Positions 20,682 to 46,556 of a stretch of 64,000 bases of DNA are shown here, in pieces (positions within the stretch are counted from its first letter, which is position 1; the number at the start of each line of letters is the position of its first letter). The translations under genes were made by a program, and so were the position numbers. The DNA comes from a virus (lineage: Duplodnaviria > Heunggongvirae > Uroviricota > Caudoviricetes): the IMG/VR virus record IMGVR_UViG_2541047879_000001, one strand, 5' to 3'. The notes under the pieces were generated by a model. The model did not search any database. It had not been told where the DNA came from and saw nothing but the letters and a program-made list of their open reading frames with translations.

Positions 20682-20682
20682 A

Positions 20683-21373: not shown

Positions 21374-21429
21374 AATTTTTCTCATAAAAAATATTTCAAG
21401 TTGGCGGTGCATTACACCGCCAGGCTGAA

Positions 21430-24832: not shown

Positions 24833-24933
24833 TGTTTTTTAACCTCAACTCAGATTAAAATTCGTTTTGTTCAGTGAATGATCTTGCCGGATACACACTG
24901 TTCATAGCCTGCGCCATACGCAGGCTATTTCTT

Positions 24934-25209
24934 TCAGATTTCACCTTTTAATTTCATTGCAATTAGAGTTGCCAGAAATTCGGCTTTTTTTTCTGCGGGC
25001 AGATTCTTTCCGATATGCACCAGGCACATTTTTTTGACACCTTCATCAAGTGTTTTTACGTTGCCTGATGGACCATCGATATCAACCACAGTGAATGGGG
25101 TTTCTTTATTTTCTGTTTTAATTACGTAGCCAATGCGCTTTCCTTCCAGATTCACCTCGTGAACAATGTCATCGGTAGTTACAACAGTGGCTTCATAATT
25201 GGTAATCAT
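24934..25209 (-). CDS. racC: RacC-like protein
   Basis: 91 aa from MITNYEATVVTTDD... Confidence 0.5.
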   Translation of the reverse strand: MITNYEATVVTTDDIVHEVNLEGKRIGYVIKTENKETPFTVVDIDGPSGNVKTLDEGVKKMCLVHIGKNLPAEKKAEFLATLIAMKLKGEI

Positions 25210-25453
25210 GTTTTTCTCCTTAATTAAGGTTGAGCGAATACCTGCCATTTCTGGCATAAATTCAGTTTCGAATAGTCAATTAATTAAAGTTCATGTGCCA
25301 TCTGGTCTTTTTCGGCACAAGCTTCACTGCAATATTTTCTCGGTTCGTCTTTTGATAAAATCCCGTGCATGAAGTGAAGCATTCTTTCAATAGCTTTGCT
25401 TTCTTCAACGTCTTTTTTGCAAAGGTGGTAAGCACATTTTATTTTCTTAGTCA

Positions 25454-25675
25454 TCACCATGACTCCGCCTTTACAGGTAAACCATCACGACCGAGGAAGA
25501 CTTTAATCATGCGGTCAGTAATGCATGTTTTTGTGGTCAGGTTACGAATATATAGTTTTCGCTTTTTAATATTGTTTGCCGAGGCAATATATGTCCGGCC
25601 TTCATGAAGAACATAATCGCCAGGAGTCACACACTGACGTGGTATTTCATCAGTTCCGAAGTGATGTGCAATCAT
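25454..25675 (-). CDS. kilR: KilR-like cell-division inhibitor
   Basis: 73 aa from [29 protein letters not shown]... Confidence 0.55.
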
Positions 25676-26116
25676 AATTATCTCCATTTTTACAAATGAA
25701 CTTTGTTGATGCGGTGCCTGGTGCCTCCAGGTGACTGCAACCAGTTAACAATTACAGTCGGCTTTCCCACCCAAACCAATAAGGACTAACATGACTTTTA
25801 ACTGTGCCACGTGCGCTTAGCCGCATTCACCGCATCACAAAATTCACTTTAAAAAGGGCGGACATCAGCCGAACTTCAAGAAAAAAACTGATGCCGCCAG
25901 GACTACACACAGCAATGTCGTTATTTACAACCGGAGGCGCACTCCCACCATTTAAATTTAACAGACAAGACCGACTCTTTATGGATATCGGAAATGCGCC
26001 TTCGTGTTGTGCCCGGTTTTATTTCACCACCTCCGGGCTTCGGTGGTCTCGGCTATACCCCTACAGCGAGAGCTTGTGTTAACATTTCAATACCCTTACA
26101 GTTGAGAGTTATTGAT

Positions 26117-26605
26117 ATGTTGGATGTATTTACTCCATTGTTGAAACTTTTTGCTAACGAGCCACTCGAAAGACTTATGTATACGATTATCATTTTTGGT
26201 CTCACTCTCTGGCTGATACCGAAAGAGTTTACTGTCGCATTCAATGCTTATACTGAAATACCTTGGCTCTTTCAGATTATCGTTTTTGCCTTTTCTTTCG
26301 TGGTCGCCATTTCCTTCTCAAGATTGCGAGCACATATTCAAAAGCATTATTCATTACTACCAGAGCAACGAGTATTGCTTCGTTTATCTGAGAAAGAAAT
26401 CGCTGTATTTAAAGATTTCCTTAAAACAGGAAATCTTATTATCACTTCTCCTTGCCGTAACCCGGTTATGAAAAAATTAGAACGGAAGGGCATCATTCAA
26501 CATCAGAGTGATAGCGCAAACTGTTCTTATTATCTCGTCACCGAAAAATACTCCCATTTTATGAAGTTATTCTGGAACAGCAGGAGTAGACGTTTTAATC
26601 GTTAG
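26117..26605 (+). CDS. sieB: Superinfection exclusion protein B
   Basis: 162 aa from MLDVFTPLLKLFANEPLE...; two hydrophobic segments; the track ORF starts further upstream at 25994. Confidence 0.75.
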   Translation: MLDVFTPLLKLFANEPLERLMYTIIIFGLTLWLIPKEFTVAFNAYTEIPWLFQIIVFAFSFVVAISFSRLRAHIQKHYSLLPEQRVLLRLSEKEIAVFKDFLKTGNLIITSPCRNPVMKKLERKGIIQHQSDSANCSYYLVTEKYSHFMKLFWNSRSRRFNR

Positions 26606-26757
26606 CTTACTGTGTGCTTCTCCAACCATCGGCGCGCACCAGTTTCGGTTTTAAATGTTTTGCTTTTGGTATACGTCATGGCAGTGAACGTTCCATCCTG
26701 GTTGGGGAACACGCCGCACACCAGGGATTCGTTGTTGACGAGGTCGATTTTTTGCAT
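26602..26757 (-). CDS. Small protein (YdaF/YdaG-region, 51 aa)
   Basis: Own translation MQKIDLVNNESLVCGVFPNQDGTFTAMTYTKSKTFKTETGARRWLEKHTVS; below track size cutoff. Confidence 0.3.
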   Translation of the reverse strand: MQKIDLVNNESLVCGVFPNQDGTFTAMTYTKSKTFKTETGARRWLEKHTVS

Positions 26758-26767
26758 TTTGCGAATC

Positions 26768-26902
26768 TCACATCTTGTAGCTACGTATAGCGACTTCTGC
26801 CTGCCAGAGATCCCAGTCGTTGCTGCGTAAAGCCTGCACAGCCTGGTTGTAAGTGATACCGCAACAATCCATCAAATACTGAACTACTTCGTAATGCACC
26901 AT
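26768..26902 (-). CDS. Small protein (YdaG-like, 44 aa)
   Basis: Own translation MVHYEVVQYLMDCCGITYNQAVQALRSNDWDLWQAEVAIRSYKM; below track size cutoff. Confidence 0.35.
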   Translation of the reverse strand: MVHYEVVQYLMDCCGITYNQAVQALRSNDWDLWQAEVAIRSYKM

Positions 26903-26934
26903 CTTATCTATCCCCTTAACGCCGGGTGGCGGAA

Positions 26935-27090
26935 CTAACTGCTGCACTGCAAAATTTGAATCCCGCCGTCATGTTCATACGCCTCGGGCTGGCTACTTAA
27001 CCCCTGACCACTGCCTGGTAACTCGAAGTATTGCCCGGCGTTCTGTGGGGCGGGGTGGGTTGGTAGGTATATAATGTACTTTGTGTTCAT
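26935..27090 (-). CDS. Small protein (51 aa)
   Basis: MNTKYIIYLPTHPAPQNAGQYFELPGSGQGLSS... within 72-aa track ORF. Confidence 0.3.
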   Translation of the reverse strand: MNTKYIIYLPTHPAPQNAGQYFELPGSGQGLSSQPEAYEHDGGIQILQCSS

Positions 27091-27189
27091 CATTGTAAAG
27101 TACTTTAAGTACCTTTTATGTATAAAAAAATGAGACGGGATAAAGTGAAGCACAAACCCGGAGGGGGACGCTACCGGATTTATGCTGGT

Positions 27190-27609
27190 TTAAGAGGCTT
27201 TTTGTTTTTTCTTTCGTGCTAACTCTTCGTAAATTGCATTGTACTTCTGTTTTTTCTCCTCAAGAGTTTTTAAAAGTTCATCTGTCTCACTGTCAGGGAG
27301 CTCGTCCAGAAGGTCAATGATGATTTTTTGTCTTGGATTTAACTCCTGATAGAAACGTATCTGTCCACTTTCTTCTGTATCCTCTCCCAAAAGATAGGTT
27401 GGTGTTGTTCCAATGAGTGTTGCTAATTCCCTTAATTTCTCTCGGCGAGGAATTGTTTCACCATTAAACCATTTGCTAACCGCTTTTGGTGTTAATTTCA
27501 TTCGACGGGCAATTTCTGCCTGCCTTCCATGTTGTTCATAACCAGCGTTTTCACAGGCTAGCGCAAGCCTACTGGCGAACTCTTTACGCGCTTTATCTTC
27601 ATGAACCAT
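27190..27609 (-). CDS. racR: Prophage repressor (RacR-like, CI-type HTH)
   Basis: 139 aa with HTH (RRMKLTPKAVSKWFNGETIP); divergent from ydaS-like gene. Confidence 0.65.
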   Translation of the reverse strand: MVHEDKARKEFASRLALACENAGYEQHGRQAEIARRMKLTPKAVSKWFNGETIPRREKLRELATLIGTTPTYLLGEDTEESGQIRFYQELNPRQKIIIDLLDELPDSETDELLKTLEEKKQKYNAIYEELARKKKQKAS

Positions 27610-27688
27610 AAGTTCAATGATATTCGCTCTTGAATGTACTGTCAGTTCTGTTATAGCATGTACTCAAAGTTCACATTGTGAGGATGAT

Positions 27689-27943
27689 ATGAACCAGAAA
27701 ACACTTGAAGATGTAATCAAAACTGTTCGCGTTTCTGTTGTGGCCGACGTTTGTGGTGTCAGCCAAAGAGCAATCTACAAATGGATGGATAACGGAAAAT
27801 TGCCTCGCACAGAATATACCGGCGAAACAAATTACGCTGAAAAAATCGCTCATGCATCAAACGGATTATTTTCTGCCGATGCAATTTTAACTATTGGCAG
27901 AAATAAAACTACTACGAAAAAGCTGATGGGAGTTGATTCATGA
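27689..27943 (+). CDS. ydaS: Cro-like HTH regulator (YdaS-like)
   Basis: Start at ATG 27689 (MNQKTLEDV...) with HTH DVCGVSQRAIYKWMDNGKLP; divergent from racR. Confidence 0.65.
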   Translation: MNQKTLEDVIKTVRVSVVADVCGVSQRAIYKWMDNGKLPRTEYTGETNYAEKIAHASNGLFSADAILTIGRNKTTTKKLMGVDS

Positions 27944-28362
27944 AAATCAAGCATGAGCACATCGAATCAGTGTTGTTAGCCCTGGCAGCCGAAAAAGGGC
28001 AGGCGTGGGTCGCTAACGCAATTACTGAAGAATATCTGCGCCAGGGGGGCGGCGAATTGCCCCTGGTACCAGGCAAGGACTGGAACAATCAGCAGAATAT
28101 CTATCATCGTTGGTTGAAAGGTGAAACGAATGCGCAAAGGGAAAAAATTCAGAAACTGATCCCTGCGGTTCTGGCAATTCTTCCTCGCGAGCTGCGTCAC
28201 CGACTCTGCATCTTCGATACCCTGGAACGCCGTGCATTACTGGCGGCACAGGATGCACTGAGTACGGCAATTGATGCGCATGATGATGCAGTCCAGGCCG
28301 TTTACCGTAAAGCACATTTCAGCGGCGGCGGTTCTCCTAGCGATTCTGTCGTAGTGCATTGA
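27940..28362 (+). CDS. ydaT: YdaT-like protein (CII-position regulator)
   Basis: 140-aa ORF overlapping ydaS stop (ATGA). Confidence 0.6.
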   Translation: MKIKHEHIESVLLALAAEKGQAWVANAITEEYLRQGGGELPLVPGKDWNNQQNIYHRWLKGETNAQREKIQKLIPAVLAILPRELRHRLCIFDTLERRALLAAQDALSTAIDAHDDAVQAVYRKAHFSGGGSPSDSVVVH

Positions 28363-28406
28363 TTGAAATTAATCGTACCGAACTGTTTTGTTCGGTATCA
28401 GTTAAA

Positions 28407-28827
28407 TGTAACGCTGCGAGCGTTACAAGGTGAAAACAAATGGCTTCAAACTGGATAAAGCTCGAAGTTATTACGCCGGATAAGCCGGAAATATTCAGGC
28501 TTGCTGAGATTCTGAATATTGATCCAGATGCCGCATTAGGGAAAGTCATTCGCTTCTGGGCATGGGCGGATCAACAAATGATAGACGGTAACGCAGAGTG
28601 TAACGCTCGAGGCGTTACAAAAAGTGCAATAGACCGTATCACTTTTATGGCTGGTTTTGCTGATGCGTTAATTCAGGTTGGATGGCTGGTCGAAAGTGAT
28701 GGAGTGCTTTCACTACCAAACTTTGAGCGTCATAACGGAAAAAGCTCGAAAAAACGGGCGGTTACAAACGAGAGAGTTACAAAAATACGCGAACTGAAGC
28801 GAAAAGGTAACGCTGCCAGCGTTACAC
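28407..28827. repeat. Three copies of a 21-bp palindrome TGTAACGC-N5-GCGTTACA (candidate iterons/ori or operator sites)
   Basis: Copies at 28407-28427, 28599-28619 and 28807-28827 plus half-sites GTAACGC (28589) and GTTACA repeats (28761-28783); one copy upstream of and two within the ydaU-like gene. Confidence 0.5.
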
Positions 28828-29228
28828 AAACGGATCAAAAAGCGTTACCAGAGGAAGAGGAAGAGGAAGATATAAATACTGATCTCCCCCTAAATCCCCC
28901 TCGGCAAAAACGAGCGTCTAAACAATTCGAGCCGGAGGCCATTGCTCTGCCCGACTGGTTGCCAGAAACACTCTGGAATGAGTGGGTCCAGTTCAGGCAG
29001 GCATTGCGAAAACCGATTCGAACGGAGCAGGGCGCTAACGGGGCGATACGGGAACTGGAAAAATTCCGCCAGCAGGGTTTTACCCCTGAGCAGGTGATTC
29101 GACACAGCATCGCCAATGAATACCAGGGCTTGTTCGCGCCGAAAAGTGTTCGGCCTGAGACGTTGCTCCGACAGGTTAACACTGTCTCGTTTCCGGACAG
29201 TGCGATCCCGCCAGGCTTCAGGGGGTAA
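28440..29228 (+). CDS. ydaU: Replication protein (YdaU-like, lambda O-position)
   Basis: 262-aa ORF upstream of the DnaC-like gene; contains the palindromic repeats. Confidence 0.6.
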   Translation: MASNWIKLEVITPDKPEIFRLAEILNIDPDAALGKVIRFWAWADQQMIDGNAECNARGVTKSAIDRITFMAGFADALIQVGWLVESDGVLSLPNFERHNGKSSKKRAVTNERVTKIRELKRKGNAASVTQTDQKALPEEEEEEDINTDLPLNPPRQKRASKQFEPEAIALPDWLPETLWNEWVQFRQALRKPIRTEQGANGAIRELEKFRQQGFTPEQVIRHSIANEYQGLFAPKSVRPETLLRQVNTVSFPDSAIPPGFRG

Positions 29229-29234
29229 CTGACC

Positions 29235-29981
29235 ATGAAAAATATTGCGACAGGCGGCGTTCTGGAACGTATCCGCAGACTGGCCCCGCCACATGTAACC
29301 GCGCCATTCAGGACGGTGGCGGAGTGGCGCGAGTGGCAACTTGCAGAAGGCCAGAAACGTTGCGAGGAGATCAATCGCCAGAATCGTCAGTTGCGGGTGG
29401 AAAAAATTCTGAATCGCTCCGGCATCCAGCCGTTGCACCGCAAATGCTCGTTTTCGAATTACCAGGTGCAGAACGACGGCCAGCGATACGCGTTGAGCCA
29501 GGCGAAATCCATCGCCGATGAACTGATGGTCGGGTGTACAAATTTTGCGTTTAGCGGAAAACCTGGTACCGGAAAAAACCATCTGGCGGCGGCTATCGGG
29601 AATCGCCTGCTGAAAAACGGTCAGACAGTGATTGTGGTTACCGTGGCTGATGTTATGAGTGCTCTACACGCCAGCTATGACGACGGGCAATCAGGCGAAA
29701 AATTTTTGCGGGAACTGTGCGAAGTGGATCTGCTGGTTCTTGATGAAATTGGCATTCAGCGCGAGACAAAAAACGAGCAGGTGGTACTGCACCAGATTGT
29801 TGATCGCCGGACAGCGTCGATCCGCAGCGTGGGGATGCTGACAAACCTGAACTATGAGGCCATGAAAACATTGCTCGGCGAGAGGATTATGGATCGGATG
29901 ACCATGAACGGCGGGCGATGGGTGAATTTTAACTGGGAGAGCTGGCGCCCGAATGTTGGTCAGCCAGGAATTGAGAAGTAA
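29235..29981 (+). CDS. ydaV: DnaC/IstB-like AAA+ helicase loader (YdaV-like)
   Basis: 248 aa; Walker A GKPGTGKNHLAAAIG and Walker B LLVLDEIG. Confidence 0.8.
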   Translation: MKNIATGGVLERIRRLAPPHVTAPFRTVAEWREWQLAEGQKRCEEINRQNRQLRVEKILNRSGIQPLHRKCSFSNYQVQNDGQRYALSQAKSIADELMVGCTNFAFSGKPGTGKNHLAAAIGNRLLKNGQTVIVVTVADVMSALHASYDDGQSGEKFLRELCEVDLLVLDEIGIQRETKNEQVVLHQIVDRRTASIRSVGMLTNLNYEAMKTLLGERIMDRMTMNGGRWVNFNWESWRPNVGQPGIEK

Positions 29982-30003
29982 TTTTTACCGGGAGGAAATT
30001 TTA

Positions 30004-30729
30004 ATGGAGACCGTTTTTGACGCACTGAAAGCAATGGGAAAAGCCTCTTCCCAGGAAGTGGCAGCACGTCTGGGAATGACCCGGGATGAGGCGATTAACG
30101 AGCTGTGGAAACTGAAGCGTCGTGGGGAAGCTGATAACAAGGGCCCGATGTGGTGGTTGACTCAAACCGACGAAAACGCATCTGTAGCACAGGCTTCTAA
30201 AGTGACAGCGCAAATGCTGATCGAGGCGATTGAACAGCATGGCCCTAAAGCGGCTGATGAACTTGCACTGATATTCAGAATTACTTCCCGCAGGGTGAAC
30301 TCATCGCTGGCTATGGCCATCAGCAAAGGTCGTCTGATTCGCGTAAATCAGAACGGTAAATTTCGTTACTGCCTGCCGGACGGTAATTTACCAGCAGAGC
30401 CGAAAGTTGTATCGGTAGTGAAAACACCTGGTAAAGGCTTTCCTCAGCCAGCCGGTGTTGCGTTACCAGTACAGGAAGCGGCAACACAGGAAGAAATTAA
30501 AACAGATACTGTGGGGGACATTGTGCAGTCACTACCATCGTTCACTGAAACGCGAGCCAATGACCTGATTATACCATCGCTGCAAATGGCAAACCGCGAA
30601 CTGCGCCGGGCGAAAAGTTATGTCCAGAAGTGGGAGCGAGTCTGCGCCGCGCTGCGTGAGCTGAACAAGCACCAGGATATTGTCCGTCAGATTGTCGATT
30701 CCTCCAGTCGTATTGTGTCGGAAAAGTGA
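30004..30729 (+). CDS. Hypothetical protein (YdaW-position, winged-helix-like N-terminus)
   Basis: Start at ATG 30004 (METVFDALKAMGK...). Confidence 0.5.
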   Translation: METVFDALKAMGKASSQEVAARLGMTRDEAINELWKLKRRGEADNKGPMWWLTQTDENASVAQASKVTAQMLIEAIEQHGPKAADELALIFRITSRRVNSSLAMAISKGRLIRVNQNGKFRYCLPDGNLPAEPKVVSVVKTPGKGFPQPAGVALPVQEAATQEEIKTDTVGDIVQSLPSFTETRANDLIIPSLQMANRELRRAKSYVQKWERVCAALRELNKHQDIVRQIVDSSSRIVSEK

Positions 30730-30745
30730 TTCCTGGGGAGGGCTT

Positions 30746-31168
30746 ATGGCAAAAGTATTTACACAGGAAGAGCGAGAAAAAATTAAAGGGCAGATTGTTG
30801 ATCTTGTACGCCAGAGCGGGCGAGAGACGTTACGACAACTGGAAGCTAAAACGGGGGCGACAAGATATCTGATAAGCGCTCTTGCTAGGGAGTTGGTTGC
30901 GAATGGTGATGTATACAACTCTGGCTATGGGTTATTTCCGTCTGAGCAGGCACGTCAAGACTGGCAAAACGCCCGCAAAAAACTATCGAGGGCAAAGGTG
31001 AAGAAACCAGTTGTGGTTGATCTGGACCTTATTTGGTCATTACCAGACGGAGAAATACGTCGCTACGACAGGCGTCTGAACATAATTTGCCGTGAGTGCC
31101 GGAAGAGTGAAGTTATGCAGCGTGTATTAGCATTCTATCAGGGAAATGTTCGGTATTTATTGAAGTGA
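30746..31168 (+). CDS. Hypothetical protein
   Basis: Start at ATG 30746 (MAKVFTQEEREK...); 140 aa. Confidence 0.45.
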   Translation: MAKVFTQEEREKIKGQIVDLVRQSGRETLRQLEAKTGATRYLISALARELVANGDVYNSGYGLFPSEQARQDWQNARKKLSRAKVKKPVVVDLDLIWSLPDGEIRRYDRRLNIICRECRKSEVMQRVLAFYQGNVRYLLK

Positions 31169-31377
31169 CGAGATTAAAGACCATTAATTCATATGTGAAT
31201 TGACAGTTTCATGGCACAGGATACGGCTAGCGTGGTTGTCTGTTTTGTGCCAGGGGCGGGCCTAACTAAGTTCACACAACATTGATTATTGAAGATTAGG
31301 TCAGAAATAAATAGGTTATTTTGATAATTTAGTTACGTTAGAATGCCGCAGTGTACAAAGTAAAAATGAGGAATAAT

Positions 31378-32739
31378 ATGACTCGGAGTGAAATAAACGT
31401 CTGGGATAAGAGACGAGGCACCAATAGTCATCGTGTGGAGGAGATTCGATCTGAAGCTCAGCACGACCTTTCTCGACTGATTCACTCGTCTGCTTTCAGA
31501 CGATTGCAATCCAAAACACAGGTTCTTGGTCTGGGTGAAAGTGATTTCTACCGCACACGACTGACTCATTCTATGGAAGTCGCACAAATCGGTTCAGGTC
31601 TTCTTGCTAAGCTGAAAATAAAATATAAAGGTAAAGAGCAAGAGCAATTTTTACCAGATAACGATCTTATGCAGGCAGTATGTCTCGCACATGATATTGG
31701 ACATCCTCCATTTGGTCACGGCGGTGAGGTAGCTCTTAACTACTGTATGCAGGATTACGGTGGTTTTGAAGGAAACGGTCAGACACTTCGCATTCTCTCG
31801 AAACTAGATAAGTATACCGTTGAACACGGACTCGATCCTACACGCAGACTTCTGCTAGGCATACTGAAATATCCGGTTAAATACTCGGATCTAGTGGTTA
31901 CAAAAGACAGAATCCCGGCCACTATCGGATCGCCGAACTGGCTCTTTAAGTCATCTGATTTTAAACCTCCAAAATGCTATCTAGATTCAGAATGCGATGT
32001 TGTAGAATTTGCTCTTTCACCATTTACTGAACAGGATCGGAGGCTTTTTACTTCCGTTGAAGATGGTCAAACTAAATCCGATCATAAAAAAGCTTCTTAT
32101 AAAGCTCTCGATACAACCATCATGGATCTTGCCGATGAAATTTCGTATTCGCTGCACGATTTGGAGGATGCTATTTCTCTCGGAATGGTGACACGAGAAA
32201 TGTGGATGGAGCATTTCAGTGAATATGAAACCCTATTTACTAACTGCCATGGAGAAACATTTTCCGCAACATGTGAATCTGTCGCGGATAGCCTTTTTGG
32301 TGAAAGTTACAAGAGAAAAGAGTGCATCGGGATGCTGGTTCACCTGATGATTACAAGCGTTGAGCTTATTACAAAGAATCCAGCATTCGAATGTGGCATG
32401 CTCAAATATAATGCGGTCCTTCCGGAAGCGGTCGAAGCACTACGGTTGAAAATTTTCAAACTGGTCAAAAATAAAGTAATTAAGCATGAAAATGTACAGC
32501 AGCTTGAATTCAAGGGACAAAAGTTGATTGTTGAGCTTTTCGGTGTGCTGGCTAACGATCCGTGTCGGTTTCTACCGGCATCAACGAGGGAAATTTACGA
32601 GCGGCAGACTAGCTTGGACGAGAAGGCTGGTATGCGAGTCATTTGCGACTATGTTTCAGGGATGACTGATGACTATGCAACAAAGCTTTATGAGAAGATC
32701 CTTATTCCACGCAAAGGGTCTATTTTTGACCATCTCTAA
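31378..32739 (+). CDS. HD-domain dGTP triphosphohydrolase-like protein (Dgt family); candidate antiphage dNTP-depletion enzyme
   Basis: N-terminal SSAFRRLQSKTQV...RLTHSMEVAQIG and HD motif VCLAHDIGHPPFGHGGE matching dGTPase family; start at ATG 31378 with GAGGA 5 nt upstream; AT-rich gene in accessory island. Confidence 0.8.
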   Translation: MTRSEINVWDKRRGTNSHRVEEIRSEAQHDLSRLIHSSAFRRLQSKTQVLGLGESDFYRTRLTHSMEVAQIGSGLLAKLKIKYKGKEQEQFLPDNDLMQAVCLAHDIGHPPFGHGGEVALNYCMQDYGGFEGNGQTLRILSKLDKYTVEHGLDPTRRLLLGILKYPVKYSDLVVTKDRIPATIGSPNWLFKSSDFKPPKCYLDSECDVVEFALSPFTEQDRRLFTSVEDGQTKSDHKKASYKALDTTIMDLADEISYSLHDLEDAISLGMVTREMWMEHFSEYETLFTNCHGETFSATCESVADSLFGESYKRKECIGMLVHLMITSVELITKNPAFECGMLKYNAVLPEAVEALRLKIFKLVKNKVIKHENVQQLEFKGQKLIVELFGVLANDPCRFLPASTREIYERQTSLDEKAGMRVICDYVSGMTDDYATKLYEKILIPRKGSIFDHL

Positions 32740-33149
32740 TGCGGCAAGAATGATGCTCTGAGTTCAATTGACCTATAAACATTAACCAAGGCATCTACCA
32801 GGGGGATATCAAATCCCCCCATTCTGAATTTGTTCGTGCAGAATCGGTGAACGTTCTCATCTGAGCGTTAAACGCCAATAATCGTTGATCTACATTGATC
32901 ATTAATACACCTTAATACCATTAGCGTCTTACTCCGTTATGAGAACAAACGCGAACTGACCTGCCCCCAGTATTAGTGACCTTCAGCTACGGTAACTTGT
33001 CCGCTTCGTGCCAGAAGCGGACATCCATAGAGAAATAAGCGATCAGTTCTTAAATTTGTTGTGATTTTTTGATTTTTTTGTATTCGCAAAGGGATTTGTG
33101 TTGGTTGTATAATTACCTAATATTCATACAGTTGAATGGGAGATGTGGG

Positions 33150-34043
33150 ATGAAGTTCTCGTACAGACATGGTTTTGATCCTGAGTATAATAAAAAGCCG
33201 ATACGGGAAGATGCTCCAGAGTGGCTTCGCTCTTTATTTTTTGTAACTGTCCTCGATAATTTTTTGTACATTGATGGTGATAGCCGCATTACGAATGATG
33301 AGAACAAGCCGTTGGGTATTAAGGCTTTGATCGAGCGACTTTGCGCAGAGAATGGTCAAGAAACAGATCATGAGGATTTCGATTCATGGTACTGCTATGA
33401 TGCTTTGAAAGCGCGTTTGCAACATATGCGTTGGTTTCAATTTTATGATGCTGTTGAGATTATCGGAGATCTATTAAGAAAAAGAGATGTAGAAAGAGGC
33501 CATACTTGGGGTAAGAAGGCATTAGAAGACATTACTTTTACATCATATCGTCAGAAATTGAACGAGTTATTCGCATCTCGAAATATTGACTGGAAAATGA
33601 ATTCTGCTGGTAGGTTAGAAACACCACTACCAAATGAATTAGAACAAAAAATCGATGAAACTAACAACTTATTGCAAGACCAGTTTGAACCTGCAAGGAG
33701 GCACTATGTGAAAGCCCGGGCTTTTGCATTAGGTGCGCATAAGGATCCAGAAAATTCCATAAAAGAATCAATAAGTGCAATAGAAAGCATGTGTCGGACT
33801 TATTATCCTTCAGCCTCAACCTTGGGCGATGTATTAAAACTGATGAGAAAAGAAAACACTATCTCACCTATGCTTTTAACGGTGATAGAGAAATTTTACG
33901 CTTATACAAATGCAGAGCCAGCAGTAAGACATGGTAGCAACAAGGTTTCTTCTGTCTTGGAATACGATGCTGAATTCGTGTTGCATATATCAGCAGCATT
34001 TATTAGAACAATAATACAAAGAAAAGCTGTTTTGGATAACTAA
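33150..34043 (+). CDS. Hypothetical protein, possibly Abi-like (helical, contains Rx6H motif RAFALGAH)
   Basis: Start at ATG 33150 (MKFSYRHGFDPEY...) preceded by candidate -10 TATAAT (33108-33113); AT-rich; domain assignment unverified. Confidence 0.5.
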   Translation: MKFSYRHGFDPEYNKKPIREDAPEWLRSLFFVTVLDNFLYIDGDSRITNDENKPLGIKALIERLCAENGQETDHEDFDSWYCYDALKARLQHMRWFQFYDAVEIIGDLLRKRDVERGHTWGKKALEDITFTSYRQKLNELFASRNIDWKMNSAGRLETPLPNELEQKIDETNNLLQDQFEPARRHYVKARAFALGAHKDPENSIKESISAIESMCRTYYPSASTLGDVLKLMRKENTISPMLLTVIEKFYAYTNAEPAVRHGSNKVSSVLEYDAEFVLHISAAFIRTIIQRKAVLDN

Positions 34044-34283
34044 GTCAGACTTACAGCCAACTGACTGTCTCTTATTATTCAAAACATAATAATGTTAGGT
34101 CCGCTTATCGCACATCAGGGACAACCATACTCAAATCTCCCACATTGCAGGAGATTTGAGTGTGAACACGTCACCGTGGAACAAAGACTGTATCATCGGT
34201 CAAAAAAGACCTGGTTATCTAGCAAAAACTTTTAACATACCAACAAACTTAATTTATTTAAATGCTATTAATACAACTAATGT

Positions 34284-35510
34284 TTAAAATATATATTTTA
34301 TATCAACCCAATTTTTAGCATTATTGTCAACTAAAGTAACGCTATGTCCATGACTTGAATTTATAGCATCGATTACTGATTGTGATGGGTGTCCATGTGA
34401 ATGACCATCCGACTGAGCTATAAACAAAACATTATCAAAATCCGCAATTATTTTTTGATTGAAATTTAATTCCGAACCATGATGAGGTAATGTCATCACC
34501 CTTACCGTTTTAATCACTTTTGAATAGAATTCAGCCCATTTATTATAATACAATGATGTATTAAGCTTTGAGTCACCTGTTAATAAAACAGATCTAATTC
34601 CTTTATCTCTATCAAAGAGAAAATGTCGCTCAACCCGACTATTTCTAAAACTAAACCACTCACGAGAAGGCTCATTAACAATTTTCATCTCAGCTTCTTG
34701 ATTATTAATAATCAAGAGATTGATTGATATTACATTATGATCGCCAGCAAGTTTTAAATAACACTCGCGTAATTTCTTTCTTTCCCCCGTGCTAGTTAAT
34801 ATTTTAAGCATTTTTTTCTTACTTAACTCAGTAAAACCATTTTCTATTAACTGCTGACTGAAAATTTCAATTTTCTTACGTGAACGGGGCGGTATCCAAG
34901 AAATAAATGACATTAGTGTATCAGTTTTGTTTTCCCCAATCCTTTTAACCAACCAACGGTTACATTCAACATCTCCTTTGGAGTCAGATATTTTCATTGG
35001 TAAGCTTACAGCGCTATCCTTAATGTTTTCACTATTAAATATAGGAGGGTCAAAATTATCATCAATATCACAGGGGTAAAGCAAAGATATATCTGCCTCA
35101 GGCAACCTTGATTTTATCCATTTGACAGGATCAATGAGAAATTCCATAAAAAGACCTGACGTAGAATTAGAGCATAGCTCCGATGCAATTAAGTAATAGC
35201 TATCATGGATATCTAGGTATGGTAATACAACCTTGCGTATTTTGTTATCTACAAGCTGACATAAATGGTCAAATCCATTTATATGGTCTGAATCCAAATG
35301 AGAGATGTATACCACATCAATATATTTCTCATCAATATTAAAGAGAGATTTAGCCACATCCATCTCCCTACGCAACGCATTTAATTGGTCACTTCCGCAG
35401 TCATACACATAACTGTAAAGCAAACTACCATCCCTTCCCCTCAGTCCGCCTAAACTAAATCCACCCTGGCCAACGGGAAACAATCTTTTATGAAATACTT
35501 CTCCGCTCAT
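34284..35510 (-). CDS. Standalone metallo-beta-lactamase-fold hydrolase (ComEC/Rec2-type MBL domain, putative nuclease)
   Basis: 408 aa; motifs PVGQGG, HLDSDHINGF (HxDxDH-type metal site) and LPHHGS characteristic of the ComEC-type MBL domain; no TM segments; AT-rich. Confidence 0.7.
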   Translation of the reverse strand: MSGEVFHKRLFPVGQGGFSLGGLRGRDGSLLYSYVYDCGSDQLNALRREMDVAKSLFNIDEKYIDVVYISHLDSDHINGFDHLCQLVDNKIRKVVLPYLDIHDSYYLIASELCSNSTSGLFMEFLIDPVKWIKSRLPEADISLLYPCDIDDNFDPPIFNSENIKDSAVSLPMKISDSKGDVECNRWLVKRIGENKTDTLMSFISWIPPRSRKKIEIFSQQLIENGFTELSKKKMLKILTSTGERKKLRECYLKLAGDHNVISINLLIINNQEAEMKIVNEPSREWFSFRNSRVERHFLFDRDKGIRSVLLTGDSKLNTSLYYNKWAEFYSKVIKTVRVMTLPHHGSELNFNQKIIADFDNVLFIAQSDGHSHGHPSQSVIDAINSSHGHSVTLVDNNAKNWVDIKYIF

Positions 35511-36224
35511 ATATCCTTCTTACACCCTAACGTGATCATAAAATTGTCTTAAAGTTAAGTTTAAAGCTAAAAAGTCACAGCTCATTCCAACTCGTGAGCA
35601 ATAGGAATGTATATTCAATCAGTTAGAGGATCAACCCGATTTTCTCTAATGAGATTTCGCAACGCAGTACGAACAGCAGCTACTTCTGCCATCTCATTAA
35701 CAACCACACTGGACTACAATCCCCTAAGTTCTACAGACTGTAACCATATCCTCTTCACAGAAATAATCTGATTAATGCTGAAGGTCATCTTTCTCGACGC
35801 GAATGTATGACATAACAACCTCAGTTAATTATCTTTCGATAGAAAAATACCTTCACAAAAGGTTTAAGCAACCCATCACAAGACAACACGCTAAGCTTGC
35901 CTTGTAAGCGTCCTGCTTAACCGAACAGTTCGCTTTCAGAGGATCTCCGGAGAACAGCTCCGATGCCTTATAAGGCCAATGCTCGCTCCTCGCTCACTGC
36001 GGACCTAAGGTTTGGTCAGCTTGTTCGCACTCTGCCAAAAGCGGGAGTTACTCCCATTCGGTGTTAATCAATGTAGAGCAGATCAATCAACGACAAAGAA
36101 AATGAGAGGCATATCACTACTCATATGAAAATTATTGTAGTAAAGTGAGCCGTAAGTTCATCATTTATAAATCATATAGCATATATGTTATATCAATTTT
36201 AATTTAAATGGCAGAATAATTACC

Positions 36225-36929
36225 ATGGAAAAAATTAAAACTCCTTGTCCATATTGTAAAGGTGAAAAAAATTGCCACATAATAGGCCATAAAAAAAGAG
36301 AATGGAGTGAGGATGATGGGGGCAACTATTTTTGGGCTGAAAGTGAATACAAATTATTAGAGTGTATGGGGTGCGACGGAATATTTACATATATTAAATC
36401 CCGTCACAGTGAAGATTACGACATTGAAAGAGATGAGTCAGGCTATGATTGTATGGTATATAACTATCATATATCAACATATCCCACTCAAGAGCAAGAA
36501 GAGATTAGACCAACTTGGTTTGGTGAGACATTAAACAAAGATCGTCAGCTGTATGTAATAATGAACGAAATGTACATCGCATTTCAAAATAAATCATTCA
36601 TTTTAGCGGCGATTGGACTTAGAACTATTTTTGACAGAACAGTTGAGGTTCTAAATATTCATCCAGGATATACATTAGGCCAGAAGGTTGACATTCTTAA
36701 AGAGGAAGGTTTTATTGGGGAAACAGAAAGGAGCCAACTTAAAATTGTAACCGAAGCTGGCAACTCAGCTGCACACAGGACATGGGCACCGAACGAAACT
36801 GAATTTAAATCGCTTTTGGTAATTATAGAAAATTTTGTAATGCGAACAATACTAAAAAATGAGGATATATTTAAGATTACAGAAAAATTACCTGCGAAAT
36901 ATCCAAGACCTCCCAAAAAGCAAGAATAA
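36225..36929 (+). CDS. Zinc-ribbon / DUF4145-like (HEPN-superfamily-like) protein
   Basis: 234 aa; N-terminal CPYC...CMGC zinc ribbon; C-terminal AAIGLRTIFDRTVE...GNSAAHRTW resembling DUF4145; AT-rich. Confidence 0.6.
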   Translation: MEKIKTPCPYCKGEKNCHIIGHKKREWSEDDGGNYFWAESEYKLLECMGCDGIFTYIKSRHSEDYDIERDESGYDCMVYNYHISTYPTQEQEEIRPTWFGETLNKDRQLYVIMNEMYIAFQNKSFILAAIGLRTIFDRTVEVLNIHPGYTLGQKVDILKEEGFIGETERSQLKIVTEAGNSAAHRTWAPNETEFKSLLVIIENFVMRTILKNEDIFKITEKLPAKYPRPPKKQE

Positions 36930-37367
36930 TGTACGTAAGTGTAAATAGAGCTAAGAGATTATATATTGACTCTGGTTATCTCTATTAGCACATGCTTTTT
37001 GTAATGCCTTAACTGATTATTTAAACTCCTGTCAGCTTTTCGCTCAAAGCGGACTAAAGTGTTGGCTTGTGACTGACTTAGCGCATTTAAGGAAGTGGTG
37101 GTGGTGACGGGGTGTTGTGTCCCATTTCCACAGAATAAATCAGAGAAACTATAGCGGCTGTAATGGCAATCTATGGTCTTGCTATTGCTCTTATGGATCA
37201 CCTTTCTGATTGATTTCATATTGGCGAGGTAACGGGAGTTAAGTAGAATAGCTGCGGGTGCTTGAGGCTGTCTGCCTCGGGCATGAACACCAAAGGCAGA
37301 TAGAGAAAAGCCCCAGTTAACATTACGCGTCCGGCAAGACGCTTAACATTAATCTGAGGCCACATCT

Positions 37368-37616
37368 ATGCTTTGCATACGTAGATTAGCCTCTTACCGA
37401 CCAAAAGGTCAAGGAGAAGCAGGCTATGAAGCAGCAAAAGGCGATGTTAATCACCCTGATCGTCATCTGTTTAACCGTTATAGTGACGGTACTGGTAACG
37501 AGGAAAGACCTCTGCGAGGTACGAATCCGAACCGACCAGACGGAGGTCGCTGTCTTCACAGCTTACGAACTTGGGGAGTAAGAGGACCAGCGGGGAGAAA
37601 TCCCCGCAACCTCTGA
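37368..37616 (+). CDS. mok: mok-like overlapping reading frame of hok locus
   Basis: 82-aa frame starting 58 nt upstream of hok and overlapping it in another frame, as in hok/sok loci. Confidence 0.45.
   Translation: MLCIRRLASYRPKGQGEAGYEAAKGDVNHPDRHLFNRYSDGTGNEERPLRGTNPNRPDGGRCLHSLRTWGVRGPAGRNPRNL
37426..37581 (+). CDS. hok: Hok/Gef-family type I toxin
   Basis: Own translation MKQQKAMLITLIVICLTVIVTVLVTRKDLCEVRIRTDQTEVAVFTAYELGE (51 aa, below track cutoff), near-identical to E. coli Hok proteins; SD AAGGAG upstream; 3' hairpin GCGGGGA-GAAA-TCCCCGC at 37590-37607. Confidence 0.85.
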   Translation: MKQQKAMLITLIVICLTVIVTVLVTRKDLCEVRIRTDQTEVAVFTAYELGE

Positions 37617-38044
37617 TGTATTATGCATCCTCAACGCAGCCACAGTTAACCTGATTGGCGGGTTTACTTCATCTGTAAATATTTTTATAAAAATAATGCC
37701 CACGCACAGCATAAAACAAAAAGTATTACAGATAAAAAAGGAACGTAATGTACAGATTTGTTGTTTTCCATATTTACTCACCTTAATATGATTAACCCTG
37801 ATAGGGCTGTTATTTCAGCGGTTTTCAAATGAGATATTATGGTGATCTGACAAATTTGCATAACATTAAAATTTAATTTGTTTAACCGCTTTTAATAATA
37901 AGCGTTGTTTGTATCCCAGCAATCTGTTGTTTGGTTTTTATTCCATTAAGGTGGGGGCTTTACACTGGAACCAGTTTATTTATACTTTATACGTCAGCCT
38001 GAACAACTGGCATCTGCTGCACTGCGCCATCGAGAGATTGAGAA

Positions 38045-38644
38045 ATGGCGCATATACAACTGGTCAAACAAACTTCTTCTGGTTTACTTCTCCCGGCGAC
38101 GCCGGAGAGTTGCGATTTTCTGCATCAAATCAAAATAGGTGAGTGGATACACGCAGACTTTAAGCGTGTGCGTAACTACGCATTCCACAAGCGTTTTTTC
38201 AAACTCCTGCAACTGGGATTCGATTACTGGACTCCGGTCGGTGGGGCGATCACGCCTCGCGAACGAGAACTGCTGTCTGGTTTCGTTGATTACCTGTGCG
38301 AATCAGTTGGTCGGGAACACACGCCAGCCCTGAGTGATGCCGCAGAGCAATACCTTAACACCGTTGCGACTCGTAGAACCCGGGATACGGCGTTGCTAAA
38401 GTCGTTTGAGGCTTTCCGCGAGTGGGTAACCATTCAGGCCGGATTTTACACCGAGCATATTTATCCGGACGGTAGCCGTGGGCGTCGGGCAAAATCCATC
38501 GCTTTTGCGAATATGGACGAAGTCGAGTTTCAGCAGGTTTATAAATCTGTACTGAATGTGCTGTGGAACTGGATTCTGTTCCGTAAATTCTCCTCTCAGG
38601 AGGAAGTTGAAAATGTGGCCGCACAACTACTGGAGTTTGCGTAA
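38045..38644 (+). CDS. Nin-region protein (DUF1367-like)
   Basis: 199-aa ORF upstream of ybcO-like and Q-like genes; family assignment from memory of similar prophage proteins. Confidence 0.5.
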   Translation: MAHIQLVKQTSSGLLLPATPESCDFLHQIKIGEWIHADFKRVRNYAFHKRFFKLLQLGFDYWTPVGGAITPRERELLSGFVDYLCESVGREHTPALSDAAEQYLNTVATRRTRDTALLKSFEAFREWVTIQAGFYTEHIYPDGSRGRRAKSIAFANMDEVEFQQVYKSVLNVLWNWILFRKFSSQEEVENVAAQLLEFA

Positions 38645-38934
38645 TGGTGAATTTACGTAAAGCGGCTAAAGGCCAGATGTGCCAGATCAGAATCCCTGGC
38701 TACTGCAATCACAATCCCGAAACCTCTGTGCTGGCGCATTACAGGCTGGCGGGGACGTGCGGAACAGCGACAAAACCACACGATATGCAGGCGGCGATAG
38801 CCTGTAGCTCATGCCACGATCTAATCGACGGGCGGGTAAAAACCAGCGATTACACCAAAGAAGAATTGCGCCTGATGCATGCTGAAGGGGTTTTTCGCAC
38901 ACAAGAAATCTGGAGAAAGAAAGGTCATTTATGA
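38644..38934 (+). CDS. YbcO-like putative nuclease (DUF1364)
   Basis: 96 aa; MxxLRKAAKGQMCQIRIPGYCNHNPETSVLAHYRL...ACSSCHD closely resembles DLP12 YbcO. Confidence 0.65.
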   Translation: MVNLRKAAKGQMCQIRIPGYCNHNPETSVLAHYRLAGTCGTATKPHDMQAAIACSSCHDLIDGRVKTSDYTKEELRLMHAEGVFRTQEIWRKKGHL

Positions 38935-39473
38935 TTTACCCAACGAATACAGGAAAAAGCGGAGAACACCTTCGCCTCACCACGCTGGAAAGTGTCTGGA
39001 TTCAGGGAAAACTACGTATGTGGGGGCGCTGGTCGTATATTGGCGGTGGCAGGTCAGGGAATATGTTCAATCAGTTGTTGGCATCCAAAAAACTGACGAA
39101 AACAGCCATTAATGAAGCCCTGCGCAGAATGAAAAAAGCGGGAATAGAGAAAGCTGAGCTGGAAGCGTTTTTGCGAGAGATGATCAACGGCAAGCAAAAG
39201 AGCTGGCTGGCGCATTGTACTGATGCAGAGGCGTTATGTATTGATCGAGTCATAAGTGAGGTGCTGGCAGAGCATCCAGGATTGATTTGCATTCTCCGGC
39301 AACGCTATGAAGGGCGGGGGATGACTAAGCGCAAAATGGCTGAATTGCTAAATGATGCACACCCAGAGTGGTGTTTTAGCACATGCGAAAAACGGATTGC
39401 TAATTGGTTAGCTGTTGCTGAGTATGCCCTATATATTCCCATGCGTGAATCATTTGCTGAGAAAATGGCTTGA
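38931..39473 (+). CDS. Putative late-gene antiterminator Q
   Basis: 180-aa ORF at the Q position (after nin genes, before terminator and lysis cassette); cysteine-containing C-terminal half; assignment mainly positional. Confidence 0.5.
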   Translation: MIYPTNTGKSGEHLRLTTLESVWIQGKLRMWGRWSYIGGGRSGNMFNQLLASKKLTKTAINEALRRMKKAGIEKAELEAFLREMINGKQKSWLAHCTDAEALCIDRVISEVLAEHPGLICILRQRYEGRGMTKRKMAELLNDAHPEWCFSTCEKRIANWLAVAEYALYIPMRESFAEKMA

Positions 39474-39552
39474 TTTCTTACGTATAAACTGCTTCAATTT
39501 TGCTATGCTTCGCAAAGCTGTATCGCGAGGCGGATTGCAGACATGGACATCG

Positions 39553-39581
39553 TAAAAAAACCGCTTAATGCGGTTTTTTTA
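39553..39581 (+). terminator. Intrinsic terminator-like hairpin downstream of Q
   Basis: AAAAAAACCGC-TTAAT-GCGGTTTTTTT: GC stem flanked by A-tract and T-tract. Confidence 0.55.
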
Positions 39582-39902
39582 CGTCAGGAAAGCAGGGGAG
39601 AATGCTGCTAGTTGGGCAACTGGTCTTTCTGCTCCAAATTATAACAGAGACCAGTTATAGTTTCGGTGCTGTGTTTTTTTTACAATATTGTGATAACACA
39701 TTGCTGGCGGGAGTTTTGATATTTCTTGGCAGGGGCTGATGATGCGTTATCCTGATGTCGTCAACTCATATAAAATGAGATGAGAGATCATTGCAGGGTG
39801 GTTTGTAATTCGCTGTTTAGCGGGACAATATGTTGTCTGATACAAGACACCCGACGCCTCAGATTACTATAATAAAGACGAAGCATCCTTTGTATTGACC
39901 AA

Positions 39903-39927
39903 CCGCCTGTTTAGGCGGTTCTTTTTG
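39903..39927 (+). terminator. Intrinsic terminator (candidate tR')
   Basis: CCGCCT-GTTT-AGGCGG followed by TTCTTTTT. Confidence 0.5.
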
Positions 39928-40458
39928 GGCTGGTTTATTGTATGCCAAATGATTATTAAAAAGGTTGTGTTAATAACAAAACCCGAAATAATATGCCTGC
40001 ATATTTTTATCTTGCTTATATTCTGCATATTGTGCATAGCAGGCTCATCCCTGCAATCAAAACTGTATGATGAGTATTTTTTGTTTTCCTTTTTTCCAGT
40101 CATCTGATGATGACCTGCTTCTTTTTAATCCGGATCGACATCAGTTTTTTAAGATAATTCCTGCGAGTTATATGCATAAATACCACAAACTCCGCATTTT
40201 ATGTGGTTGGGAGTTGCCGGGCGCGCAGTGAGTTTGCTAAGAAAACTCCTGCATGGTGAATCCCCCTGTGCGGTGGGGTGATACCATTAACCTTTTCTGT
40301 CGCCGACAGGTATCACGAACATTTTGTTCACCGGGAGGCACCCGGCACCATGCACTTCAATAGATTCTCTCCACATTATGGATATTCTTTCAGAATATCC
40401 CACGCAGACTTTGTGTAAATGTTAACAAATGTGCGTTTTATTTGATCTGATTCGCTGT

Positions 40459-40488
40459 TTGAGCGTCCAAAACAACGGTATATATAAT
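40459..40488 (+). promoter_or_regulatory. Candidate sigma70 promoter of TolA-like moron
   Basis: -35 TTGAGC (40459-40464), 18-bp spacer, -10 TATAAT (40483-40488), ~30 nt before start codon 40518. Confidence 0.45.
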
Positions 40489-40517
40489 CCTTTACTATAT
40501 GACATATGTGAGGAAAA

Positions 40518-40946: not shown

Positions 40947-41096
40947 TATTTATTGTTTTGTAATAAACGGTTTCGGCTTAGGTTTGTTCTGACACAGCTA
41001 CGGCACTGAGCTAAATTTAGCGGATAGTCAGCTCTGAGCCAGTGGCGGACGTAACAACTACTATTGCTGAGATTTTAATGGATTGAGGAGCAAGAA

Positions 41097-41492: not shown

Positions 41493-41617
41493 CTCTTCAA
41501 TTACTATATCTCATTCATAGCAAACTGACAGATTTGATGATGTTCTATATACGAAACCTGTGATGTCAAGTCTGAGCTAATACAAATAAACATAATATCA
41601 GAGAAATACATTTTATT

Positions 41618-41641
41618 AGCTCGCTACGGCGAGCTTTTTAT
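41618..41641 (+). terminator. Intrinsic terminator closing the moron, upstream of holin
   Basis: AGCTCGC-TACG-GCGAGCT followed by TTTTTA. Confidence 0.55.
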
Positions 41642-41743
41642 ATTGCATCGTCTCCAGCATATATATCAATTAAGGCTCTGATTGATGTGTCTGAAAGCCT
41701 ACACATAATAACTATGCCATCCGTTCCGTGCGGAGGTGAGGCT

Positions 41744-46553: not shown

Positions 46554-46556
46554 CTG

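What the first reader, a model, noticed from the sequence alone, without database searches (positions are those of the whole stretch)
31378..32739. Prophage-encoded HD-domain dGTPase
Clear Dgt-family motifs; defensive dGTPases that deplete dGTP during infection are a described antiphage mechanism. Location inside the prophage island, low GC and a hairpin at 32801-32819 after the gene argue for cargo rather than the chromosomal housekeeping dgt.
Basis: partly seen in the sequence, partly recalled or inferred. Interest (0 to 1): 0.55.

Follow-up and report, generated by a model that had tools for sequence, protein, structure and literature searches.

The report
Prophage-borne anti-phage dGTPase, already annotated
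The gene is a real, intact copy of a known phage-defence enzyme that starves invading viruses of the DNA building block dGTP. It rides as cargo in an E. coli prophage, and public databases already name the identical protein this way, so the finding is correct but ordinary.

Summary
Window 31378-32739 (+) is an intact 453-aa ORF with a GAGGA ribosome-binding site. It has HD and HD_assoc domains and every catalytic residue of the dGTP triphosphohydrolases.

- It scores 560 bits on NCBIfam NF041026 "anti-phage deoxyguanosine triphosphatase" (cut-off 400), but only 149 on the E. coli-type Dgt model (cut-off 405).
- It is 55% identical over its full length to the experimentally validated Shewanella Sp-dGTPase (PDB 9P8W), and 26% identical to housekeeping Dgt.
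- E. coli RM9513, one of the genomes carrying the identical gene, also has the normal dgt at mtnN-dgt-degP.
- The gene sits in a low-GC, hypervariable cargo slot of a Rac-site lambdoid prophage.
- The same 1.7-kb cassette (97% nt) lies next to type I RM and DarTG in a non-prophage island of E. coli 1303. Close relatives sit on other mobile elements.

The cited hairpin exists but is unremarkable and is not a canonical terminator.

RefSeq already annotates the identical protein (WP_021554374.1) as an anti-phage dGTPase, and PADLOC recognises it. Nothing here is new beyond one more untested allele. Enzyme activity and phage protection remain unmeasured for this allele.

The parts
31378..32739 (+). 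Anti-phage dGTPase CDS (453 aa, including the stop codon): HD domain at residues 61-133 and HD_assoc at 348-439.
   Evidence: ORF list. Pfam, PADLOC dGTPase 478 bits, NCBIfam NF041026 560 bits against a cut-off of 400. The RefSeq CDS in identical DNA has the same coordinates.
31368..31372 (+). Shine-Dalgarno GAGGA, 5 nt upstream of ATG 31378.
   Evidence: Read directly from the sequence. No such motif precedes the alternative GTG at 31351.
31567..31569 (+). Codon for H64, the first metal-ligand histidine (RLTHSMEV), equivalent to E. coli Dgt H69.
   Evidence: Invariant column in alignment A1. Numbering taken from the BLASTP alignment.
31690..31728 (+). Codons for HDIGHPPFGHGGE. This holds the HD motif (H105, D106) and the catalytic H114/E117 dyad. 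Sp-dGTPase D101, whose D101A mutation abolished defence, aligns to D106.
   Evidence: Alignment. The D101A result comes from Tal et al., bioRxiv 10.1101/2021.04.26.441389. The HE dyad is described in PMC12265719.
32134..32136 (+). Codon for D253 (LADEISY), the fourth metal ligand, equivalent to E. coli Dgt D268.
   Evidence: Invariant column. Numbering.
31247..32957 (+). Mobile 1.7-kb cassette: 131 bp upstream, the CDS, and 218 bp downstream. It is 97.1% identical to a segment of a non-prophage island in E. coli 1303.
   Evidence: megablast. Exact boundaries by blastn. Context of the 1303 copy.
32801..32819 (+). It is not followed by a T-run.
   Evidence: Sequence. Fold z = -1.0, with 29 of 200 shuffles as stable. 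Not called by the terminator scan.
31169..37255 (.). Low-GC (38.6%) hypervariable cargo slot of the lambdoid prophage, between the DUF977 gene and sok/hok. It holds the dGTPase, an AbiJ-like gene, an MBL-fold gene and a DUF4145 gene.
   Evidence: GC. Different cargo occupies the same slot in other Rac-like prophages. sok RNA at 37256-37431.
19285..64000 (.). Rac-site (ttcA-adjacent) lambdoid prophage that carries the gene. It runs from intR through the replication, lysis, head and tail genes and continues past the end of the window.
   Evidence: Co-linearity with annotated E. coli RM9513. Tail genes at 54-64 kb. Intact terminase, portal and capsid-sized ORFs.

Best explanation
The gene encodes a single-protein anti-phage dGTP triphosphohydrolase of the Sp-dGTPase family, carried as accessory cargo (a moron) in a lambdoid prophage. 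By homology, the HD-domain enzyme probably forms a hexamer like Sp-dGTPase. It would use a metal bound by H64, H105, D106 and D253, together with the H114/E117 dyad, to cleave dGTP into deoxyguanosine and triphosphate. That removes dGTP from the pool, so a superinfecting phage cannot replicate its DNA, and the lysogen and its prophage are protected. Shown here: the gene is intact, it belongs to the family, its catalytic residues are conserved, it lies on mobile elements next to defence genes, and it is under purifying selection. Inferred from relatives: the substrate, the oligomeric state, and protection itself. Unknown: how activity is restrained in uninfected cells and during the prophage's own induction.
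For: Family models: NF041026 560 bits (cut-off 400), NF003701 558 bits (cut-off 383), PADLOC dGTPase 478 bits. The best solved structure is 9P8W, which is Sp-dGTPase (E 9.5e-152, 55% identity over residues 10-453). This exceeds the >=45% identity line above which Tal et al. found 53% of homologues next to known defence systems. All catalytic residues are invariant. dN/dS is 0.15 against the 97.7%-identical E. coli 1303 allele. The gene sits in a prophage cargo slot that holds different genes in other Rac-like prophages. The same cassette lies next to type I RM and DarTG in E. coli 1303. The 94%-identical Proteus hauseri copy is in an integrase-flanked island beside smpB with Mrr and type I RM genes. 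The 86% and 80% relatives lie beside conjugation genes. 64 of 92 E. coli family matches are on plasmids of about 70-115 kb, and a P1-like phage (Punavirus) carries a 68%-identical copy. RefSeq names the identical protein an anti-phage deoxyguanosine triphosphatase.
Against: No activity or plating data exist for this allele. The closest relative that Tal et al. cloned, from Enterobacter sp. ODB01 (92% identical over the 133 aa available), was by elimination one of the two of six constructs that gave no protection. However, that construct begins at the equivalent of M98 and so lacks the N-terminal 97 residues, including H64. No convincing sigma-70 promoter was found in the 209 bp upstream (best match 8 of 12), so expression in the lysogen is unproven. 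A dGTP-depleting enzyme inside a prophage that appears intact raises an unresolved self-compatibility question.
Confidence: 0.88

Rival explanations
1. It is a second housekeeping dGTPase that trims the dNTP pool for replication fidelity, as E. coli Dgt does, and has no dedicated role in phage defence.
For: It has the same fold and catalytic residues as Dgt. Tal et al. note that more distant family members may be housekeeping genes.
Against: It is only 26% identical to Dgt and scores 149 bits against a cut-off of 405 on the Dgt equivalog model. The canonical dgt is present at mtnN-dgt-degP in a genome with the identical prophage gene. Only 91 of 5426 complete E. coli genomes match the gene by blastn; the copies whose context was inspected are in a prophage or an integrative island, and 64 of the 92 matches are on plasmids.
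Confidence: 0.04
2. It is one component of a multi-gene system, working either with the adjacent AbiJ-like, MBL-fold and DUF4145 genes or as a Clover-like CloA with a regulatory partner.
For: The four genes share one low-GC block that is found complete in only 9 E. coli genomes. The neighbours hit PADLOC candidate-defence models.
Against: The cassette moves alone. The copies in E. coli 1303, Proteus, Dickeya and the P1-like phage lack these neighbours. A 407-nt gap and opposite gene orientations separate the neighbours. Sp-dGTPase works as a single gene and hydrolyses dGTP on its own in vitro. No nucleotidyltransferase gene lies next to it, and CloA structures match at only 76-83 bits.
Confidence: 0.05
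3. It is a decaying, non-functional passenger gene.
For: No promoter was identified. One P1-like phage copy is split by a frameshift.
Against: The reading frame is intact, all catalytic residues are present, a good ribosome-binding site precedes it, and dN/dS is 0.15 between alleles in different elements.
Confidence: 0.03

Closest known systems
Sp-dGTPase of Shewanella putrefaciens CN-32 (Tal et al. 2022; crystal structure PDB 9P8W, Yamaguchi et al. 2025)
   Same: Full-length collinear alignment at 55% identity. Same HD plus HD_assoc architecture, identical HDIGHPPFGHGGE active-site block, single-gene organisation, and location on mobile or defence DNA.
   Different: 45% of residues differ. 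This gene lies in a lambdoid prophage rather than next to an RM system. Hexamer formation, dGTP specificity and phage range are untested for this allele.
E. coli G177 dGTPase (Tal et al.; it protected E. coli against phages)
   Same: Same species and family: 74% identity over the first 133 residues, which is the only part of the sequence available here.
   Different: A different allele.
E. coli housekeeping Dgt (PDB 4X9E, 6OIY)
   Same: HD-domain dGTP triphosphohydrolase with the same metal ligands and HE dyad (H69, H117, D118, H126, E129, D268 aligned to H64, H105, D106, H114, E117, D253).
   Different: 26% identity. Dgt is 505 aa, with a 41-residue insertion after the active-site block and other indels. 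It is a core gene at a fixed locus and falls far below the family cut-off.
Clover CloA/CloB and the octameric Vibrio Vdg dGTPases
   Same: Nucleotide-depleting HD-domain defence dGTPases.
   Different: Weak sequence matches (CloA 76-83 bits, Vdg 149 bits) against 509 bits for Sp-dGTPase. There is no CloB-type nucleotidyltransferase neighbour.

Membership tests
Anti-phage dGTPase (Sp-dGTPase family; NCBIfam NF041026 / PADLOC dGTPase) | Scores above the curated family cut-off over the full model length. | tested here: met
   NF041026 560.1 bits against a cut-off of 400, model positions 1-424 of 425. PADLOC PDLC02374 478 bits.
Anti-phage dGTPase (Sp-dGTPase family; NCBIfam NF041026 / PADLOC dGTPase) | HD plus HD_assoc architecture with intact H...HD...D metal ligands and the HE catalytic dyad. 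| tested here: met
   Pfam PF01966 and PF13286. H64, H105, D106, H114, E117 and D253 are invariant.
Anti-phage dGTPase (Sp-dGTPase family; NCBIfam NF041026 / PADLOC dGTPase) | At least 45% identity to Sp-dGTPase over at least 90% of the length (the line Tal et al. draw for the defence-associated group). | tested here: met
   254/459 = 55% identity over residues 10-453. The criterion is quoted.
Anti-phage dGTPase (Sp-dGTPase family; NCBIfam NF041026 / PADLOC dGTPase) | Located in defence islands or on mobile elements. | tested here: met
   Prophage cargo slot. The same cassette lies beside type I RM and DarTG. The Proteus copy lies beside Mrr and type I RM genes.
Anti-phage dGTPase (Sp-dGTPase family; NCBIfam NF041026 / PADLOC dGTPase) | Hydrolyses dGTP to deoxyguanosine and triphosphate, and depletes dGTP in infected cells. 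| not testable with these tools
   Needs an enzyme assay and LC-MS of nucleotide pools.
Anti-phage dGTPase (Sp-dGTPase family; NCBIfam NF041026 / PADLOC dGTPase) | Confers phage resistance that depends on the HD motif. | not testable with these tools
   Needs plaque assays with wild type and a D106A mutant.
Anti-phage dGTPase (Sp-dGTPase family; NCBIfam NF041026 / PADLOC dGTPase) | Hexameric assembly, as in PDB 9P8W. | not tested
   No multimer modelling was run. It is inferred only from the 55% identity.
Housekeeping Dgt (NCBIfam NF003429, E. coli type) | Scores above the equivalog cut-off and is collinear with the 505-aa Dgt. | tested here: not met
   149.3 bits against a cut-off of 405. 26% identity with 27% gaps.
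Housekeeping Dgt (NCBIfam NF003429, E. coli type) | Core gene at the conserved mtnN-dgt-degP locus. | tested here: not met
   The gene lies in a prophage. The canonical dgt occupies that locus in RM9513, which also carries the identical prophage gene.
Clover (CloA dGTPase + CloB nucleotidyltransferase) | An adjacent CloB nucleotidyltransferase partner gene. | tested here: not met
   The neighbours are a DUF977 gene and an AbiJ_NTD4-like gene, with no NTase. CloA chains match at only 76-83 bits.

The most novel reading that the evidence does not exclude
The dGTPase itself is conventional. The 6-kb low-GC slot it occupies (31169-37255) may be a four-gene defence mini-island. Its other three genes are an AbiJ_NTD4/PDC-S32-like protein, a 408-aa MBL-fold protein with weak LmuA/Avs1a-like similarity, and a zinc-ribbon DUF4145 protein. 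These could be uncharacterised anti-phage genes. Separately, the resident prophage may have a way of escaping its own dGTP depletion when it is induced.
Probability: 0.25. Interest if true: 0.35.

Novelty: already known. Interest (0 to 1): 0.13.

Why it matters
It adds little beyond confirming the annotation. It is a tidy example of a nucleotide-depletion defence gene travelling as a self-contained 1.7-kb cassette between a lambdoid prophage, an integrative defence island, conjugative elements and P1-like phage-plasmids. That is useful for cataloguing prophage-borne immunity in E. coli. The one open biological question is how a prophage that must replicate its own DNA tolerates a dGTP-destroying enzyme.

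Tried and rejected
- **Promoter search:** neither the tool scan nor a relaxed scan of 31169-31377 found a convincing sigma-70 site; the best match was 8 of 12.
- **Terminator search:** nothing was called downstream of the gene on the + strand. A stronger hairpin at 32998-33023 (z = -3.7) also lacks a T-run and lies outside the conserved cassette.
- **Rfam scan of 30500-38000:** it found only sok, so there is no leader or riboswitch.
- **Repeat search for cassette-flanking direct or inverted repeats:** nothing convincing, so the transfer mechanism is unresolved.
- **Literature search for the exact protein accession:** no paper.
- **Sandbox file layout:** two scripts failed because fetched loci are bundled several to a FASTA file. 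An apparent second dGTPase hit "in L002" was in fact the P1-like phage locus L004 in the same file.
- **Considered and rejected:** housekeeping Dgt, Clover CloA, a multi-gene system with the neighbours, and a pseudogene (see rival explanations).
- **Deliberately not run:** the large protein-database searches and structure prediction. A solved structure at 55% identity and curated family models had already settled the question.

Full report
**Observation**

The window has an ORF ending at 32739 on the + strand. It can start at GTG 31351 (462 aa) or ATG 31378 (453 aa). ATG 31378 is the better start for three reasons. GAGGA at 31368-31372 lies 5 nt upstream. RefSeq places the CDS at exactly these coordinates in identical DNA. 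Similarity to the closest solved homologue begins at residue 10.

The protein has a Pfam HD domain (residues 61-133) and an HD_assoc domain (348-439).

**Family assignment**

- NCBIfam gives 560.1 bits on NF041026 "anti-phage deoxyguanosine triphosphatase" (cut-off 400) and 557.7 bits on NF003701 (cut-off 383).
- Every housekeeping dGTPase equivalog model falls far below its cut-off. The E. coli-type Dgt model NF003429 gives 149.3 bits against 405.
- PADLOC's dGTPase model gives 478 bits.
- Among solved structures the best match is 9P8W (E 9.5e-152). E. coli Dgt (4X9E) reaches only 100 bits, the CloA chains 76-83 bits, and the octameric Vibrio Vdg 149 bits.
- The Data Availability statement of PMC12265719 identifies 9P8W as the Shewanella putrefaciens CN-32 dGTPase. 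That is Sp-dGTPase, the enzyme Tal et al. showed to deplete dGTP and block T7. Its defence is lost in a D101A mutant.
- BLASTP gives 254/459 = 55% identity over residues 10-453. This is above the 45% line at which Tal et al. found homologues enriched next to defence systems (58 of 110).

**Comparison with housekeeping Dgt**

E. coli RM9513 carries a 100%-identical copy of the prophage gene. It also has the canonical 505-aa dgt between mtnN and degP. The two proteins are 26% identical with 27% gaps.

In a four-way alignment the metal ligands and catalytic dyad are invariant. H64, H105, D106, H114, E117 and D253 correspond to Dgt H69, H117, D118, H126, E129 and D268. Dgt has a 41-residue insertion after the active-site block that the defence-type proteins lack.

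A neighbour-joining tree of 29 sequences puts the window protein in an enterobacterial clade with E. coli 1303, Proteus hauseri, Dickeya oryzae and a MAG. That clade is sister to the one containing Sp-dGTPase, and Dgt is the distant outgroup.

**Genomic context**

The window is E. coli.
- Bases 1-17822 are a Mu-like prophage.
- ttcA follows.
- From intR at about 19285 a Rac-site lambdoid prophage runs through the replication genes (ydaV, DUF1627, DUF977), lysis genes, terminase, portal, capsid and tail genes. It continues beyond the window end.

The dGTPase lies directly after the DUF977 gene. It is in a 6-kb stretch (31169-37255) of 38.6% GC, against 47% for the rest of the prophage. The stretch ends at sok/hok.

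In other Rac-like prophages the same slot holds quite different cargo:
- DUF262 plus an AAA ATPase plus a hypothetical protein in KO11FL.
- A Dcm methyltransferase, an O-methyltransferase and an ATPase in an O111:H8 strain.
- QueH in strain 446.

**Mobility**

A 1711-bp segment (31247-32957) holds 131 bp upstream, the CDS and 218 bp downstream. It recurs at 97.1% identity in E. coli 1303 and similar strains. There it lies outside any prophage, between a short integrase fragment and a type I RM operon that encloses DarTG.

Between the two alleles dN/dS is 0.15 (20.5 synonymous and 11.5 non-synonymous differences), which indicates purifying selection.

Among 185,579 species-representative genomes the closest relatives are:
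- Proteus hauseri (94% aa), directly after a P4-type integrase next to smpB, with Mrr and type I RM genes within 8 kb.
- Dickeya oryzae (86%), beside VirB3/VirB4.
- An Enterobacteriaceae MAG (80%), beside TraC.

Of 5426 complete E. coli genomes, 91 match the gene by blastn (92 matches in all). Seventeen match at 95% nucleotide identity or more: 11 of these cover the whole 2.1-kb query including the DUF977 flank at 99% or more, as in the Rac-slot copy of RM9513, and 6 are the ~97% cassette form seen in the E. coli 1303 island. The other 74 are about 66% identical. Across all matches, 64 lie on plasmids of about 70-115 kb. A Punavirus (P1-like) phage carries a 68%-identical copy, split by a frameshift. 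All of these are annotated "anti-phage deoxyguanosine triphosphatase" in RefSeq.

**The hairpin**

GGGGGAT-atcaa-ATCCCCC at 32801-32819 is real. However, 29 of 200 dinucleotide shuffles fold at least as well (z = -1.0). It has no following T-run and the terminator scan does not call it. It lies inside the conserved cassette but is weak evidence for anything. No sigma-70 promoter of note lies upstream, and Rfam finds no RNA element in the cassette.

**Mechanism**

What the sequence shows is an intact, selectively maintained, mobile HD-domain enzyme with a complete dGTPase active site.

What is inferred from Sp-dGTPase:
- It hydrolyses dGTP to deoxyguanosine and triphosphate.
- It assembles as a hexamer.
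- It starves superinfecting phages of dGTP.

Regulation is unsettled even for the model enzyme. T7 escape mutants map to the RNA-polymerase modifiers gp5.7 and gp0.7, yet purified Sp-dGTPase is active on its own. How the resident prophage replicates on induction despite the enzyme is not addressed by any data here.

**A caveat**

Tal et al. cloned six dGTPases and four protected. By elimination from their Table S5, the Enterobacter sp. ODB01 construct did not. It is the closest to this protein, at 92% identity over the 133 residues available. But it starts at the equivalent of M98, so it lacks the first 97 residues including H64. The E. coli G177 enzyme, 74% identical over its first 133 residues, did protect.

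**Verdict**

The identical protein (WP_021554374.1) is already named an anti-phage dGTPase by the standard annotation pipeline and is recognised by PADLOC. No paper mentions the accession, and this allele remains untested experimentally. The finding is ordinary: a known single-gene defence system in a typical prophage cargo slot.

Noticed in passing
window 33147-34043 (+): A 298-aa protein downstream of the dGTPase. It just passes Pfam AbiJ_NTD4 (34.3 bits against a cut-off of 34) and hits the PADLOC candidate family PDC-S32 at 115 bits. RefSeq calls it hypothetical. It may be an uncharacterised abortive-infection-type gene.
   Followed up: partly
window 34284-35510 (-): A 408-aa MBL-fold metallo-hydrolase in 33% GC DNA. 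It has weak similarity to the MBL proteins of the LmuA, Avs1a, DRT and 6A-MBL defence systems, but no partner gene of those systems lies next to it.
   Followed up: partly
window 36225-36929 (+): A DUF4145 protein. The ORF can be read as 234 aa with an N-terminal CxxC...CxxC zinc-ribbon-like segment, whereas RefSeq annotates only the C-terminal 158 aa. With the two genes above it forms a block found complete in only 9 of 5426 E. coli genomes.
   Followed up: partly
window 34100-34211: A 112-bp remnant of the 5' end and upstream region of a P4-type integrase gene, with a 15-bp inverted repeat at 34126-34164. The same piece (90% identical) lies just upstream of the dGTPase cassette in the E. coli 1303 island. 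This suggests the prophage slot was assembled from fragments of such an island.
   Followed up: partly
window 31169-37255 versus L005, L006, L007: The position between the DUF977 gene and hok/sok or the nin genes is a hypervariable cargo slot in Rac-like prophages. Other strains carry DUF262 plus an AAA ATPase plus a hypothetical protein, or a Dcm methyltransferase plus an O-methyltransferase plus an ATPase, or QueH.
   Followed up: partly
window 1-17822: Part of a Mu-like transposable prophage (Mu transposase, DUF935 portal-like and Gp27-family genes; 54-59% GC over its first 8 kb). It ends at 17822, next to the 3' part of dbpA and just upstream of ttcA. Two unrelated prophages therefore sit about 1.5 kb apart.
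   Followed up: partly
window 37256-37581: A hok/sok type I toxin-antitoxin module marks the right edge of the cargo slot (Rfam sok 105 bits; hokD-like 51-aa ORF at 37426-37581).
   Followed up: no
window 32998-33023: A 10-bp GC-rich hairpin (-18.4 kcal/mol, z = -3.7) just outside the conserved dGTPase cassette and upstream of the AbiJ-like gene. It has no T-run and its function is unknown.
   Followed up: no
window 47623-48933: The terminase large-subunit ORF is intact here. The otherwise 99.9%-identical region of E. coli RM9513 is annotated as a pseudogene with an internal stop. The prophage in this window may therefore still be able to package DNA.
   Followed up: no
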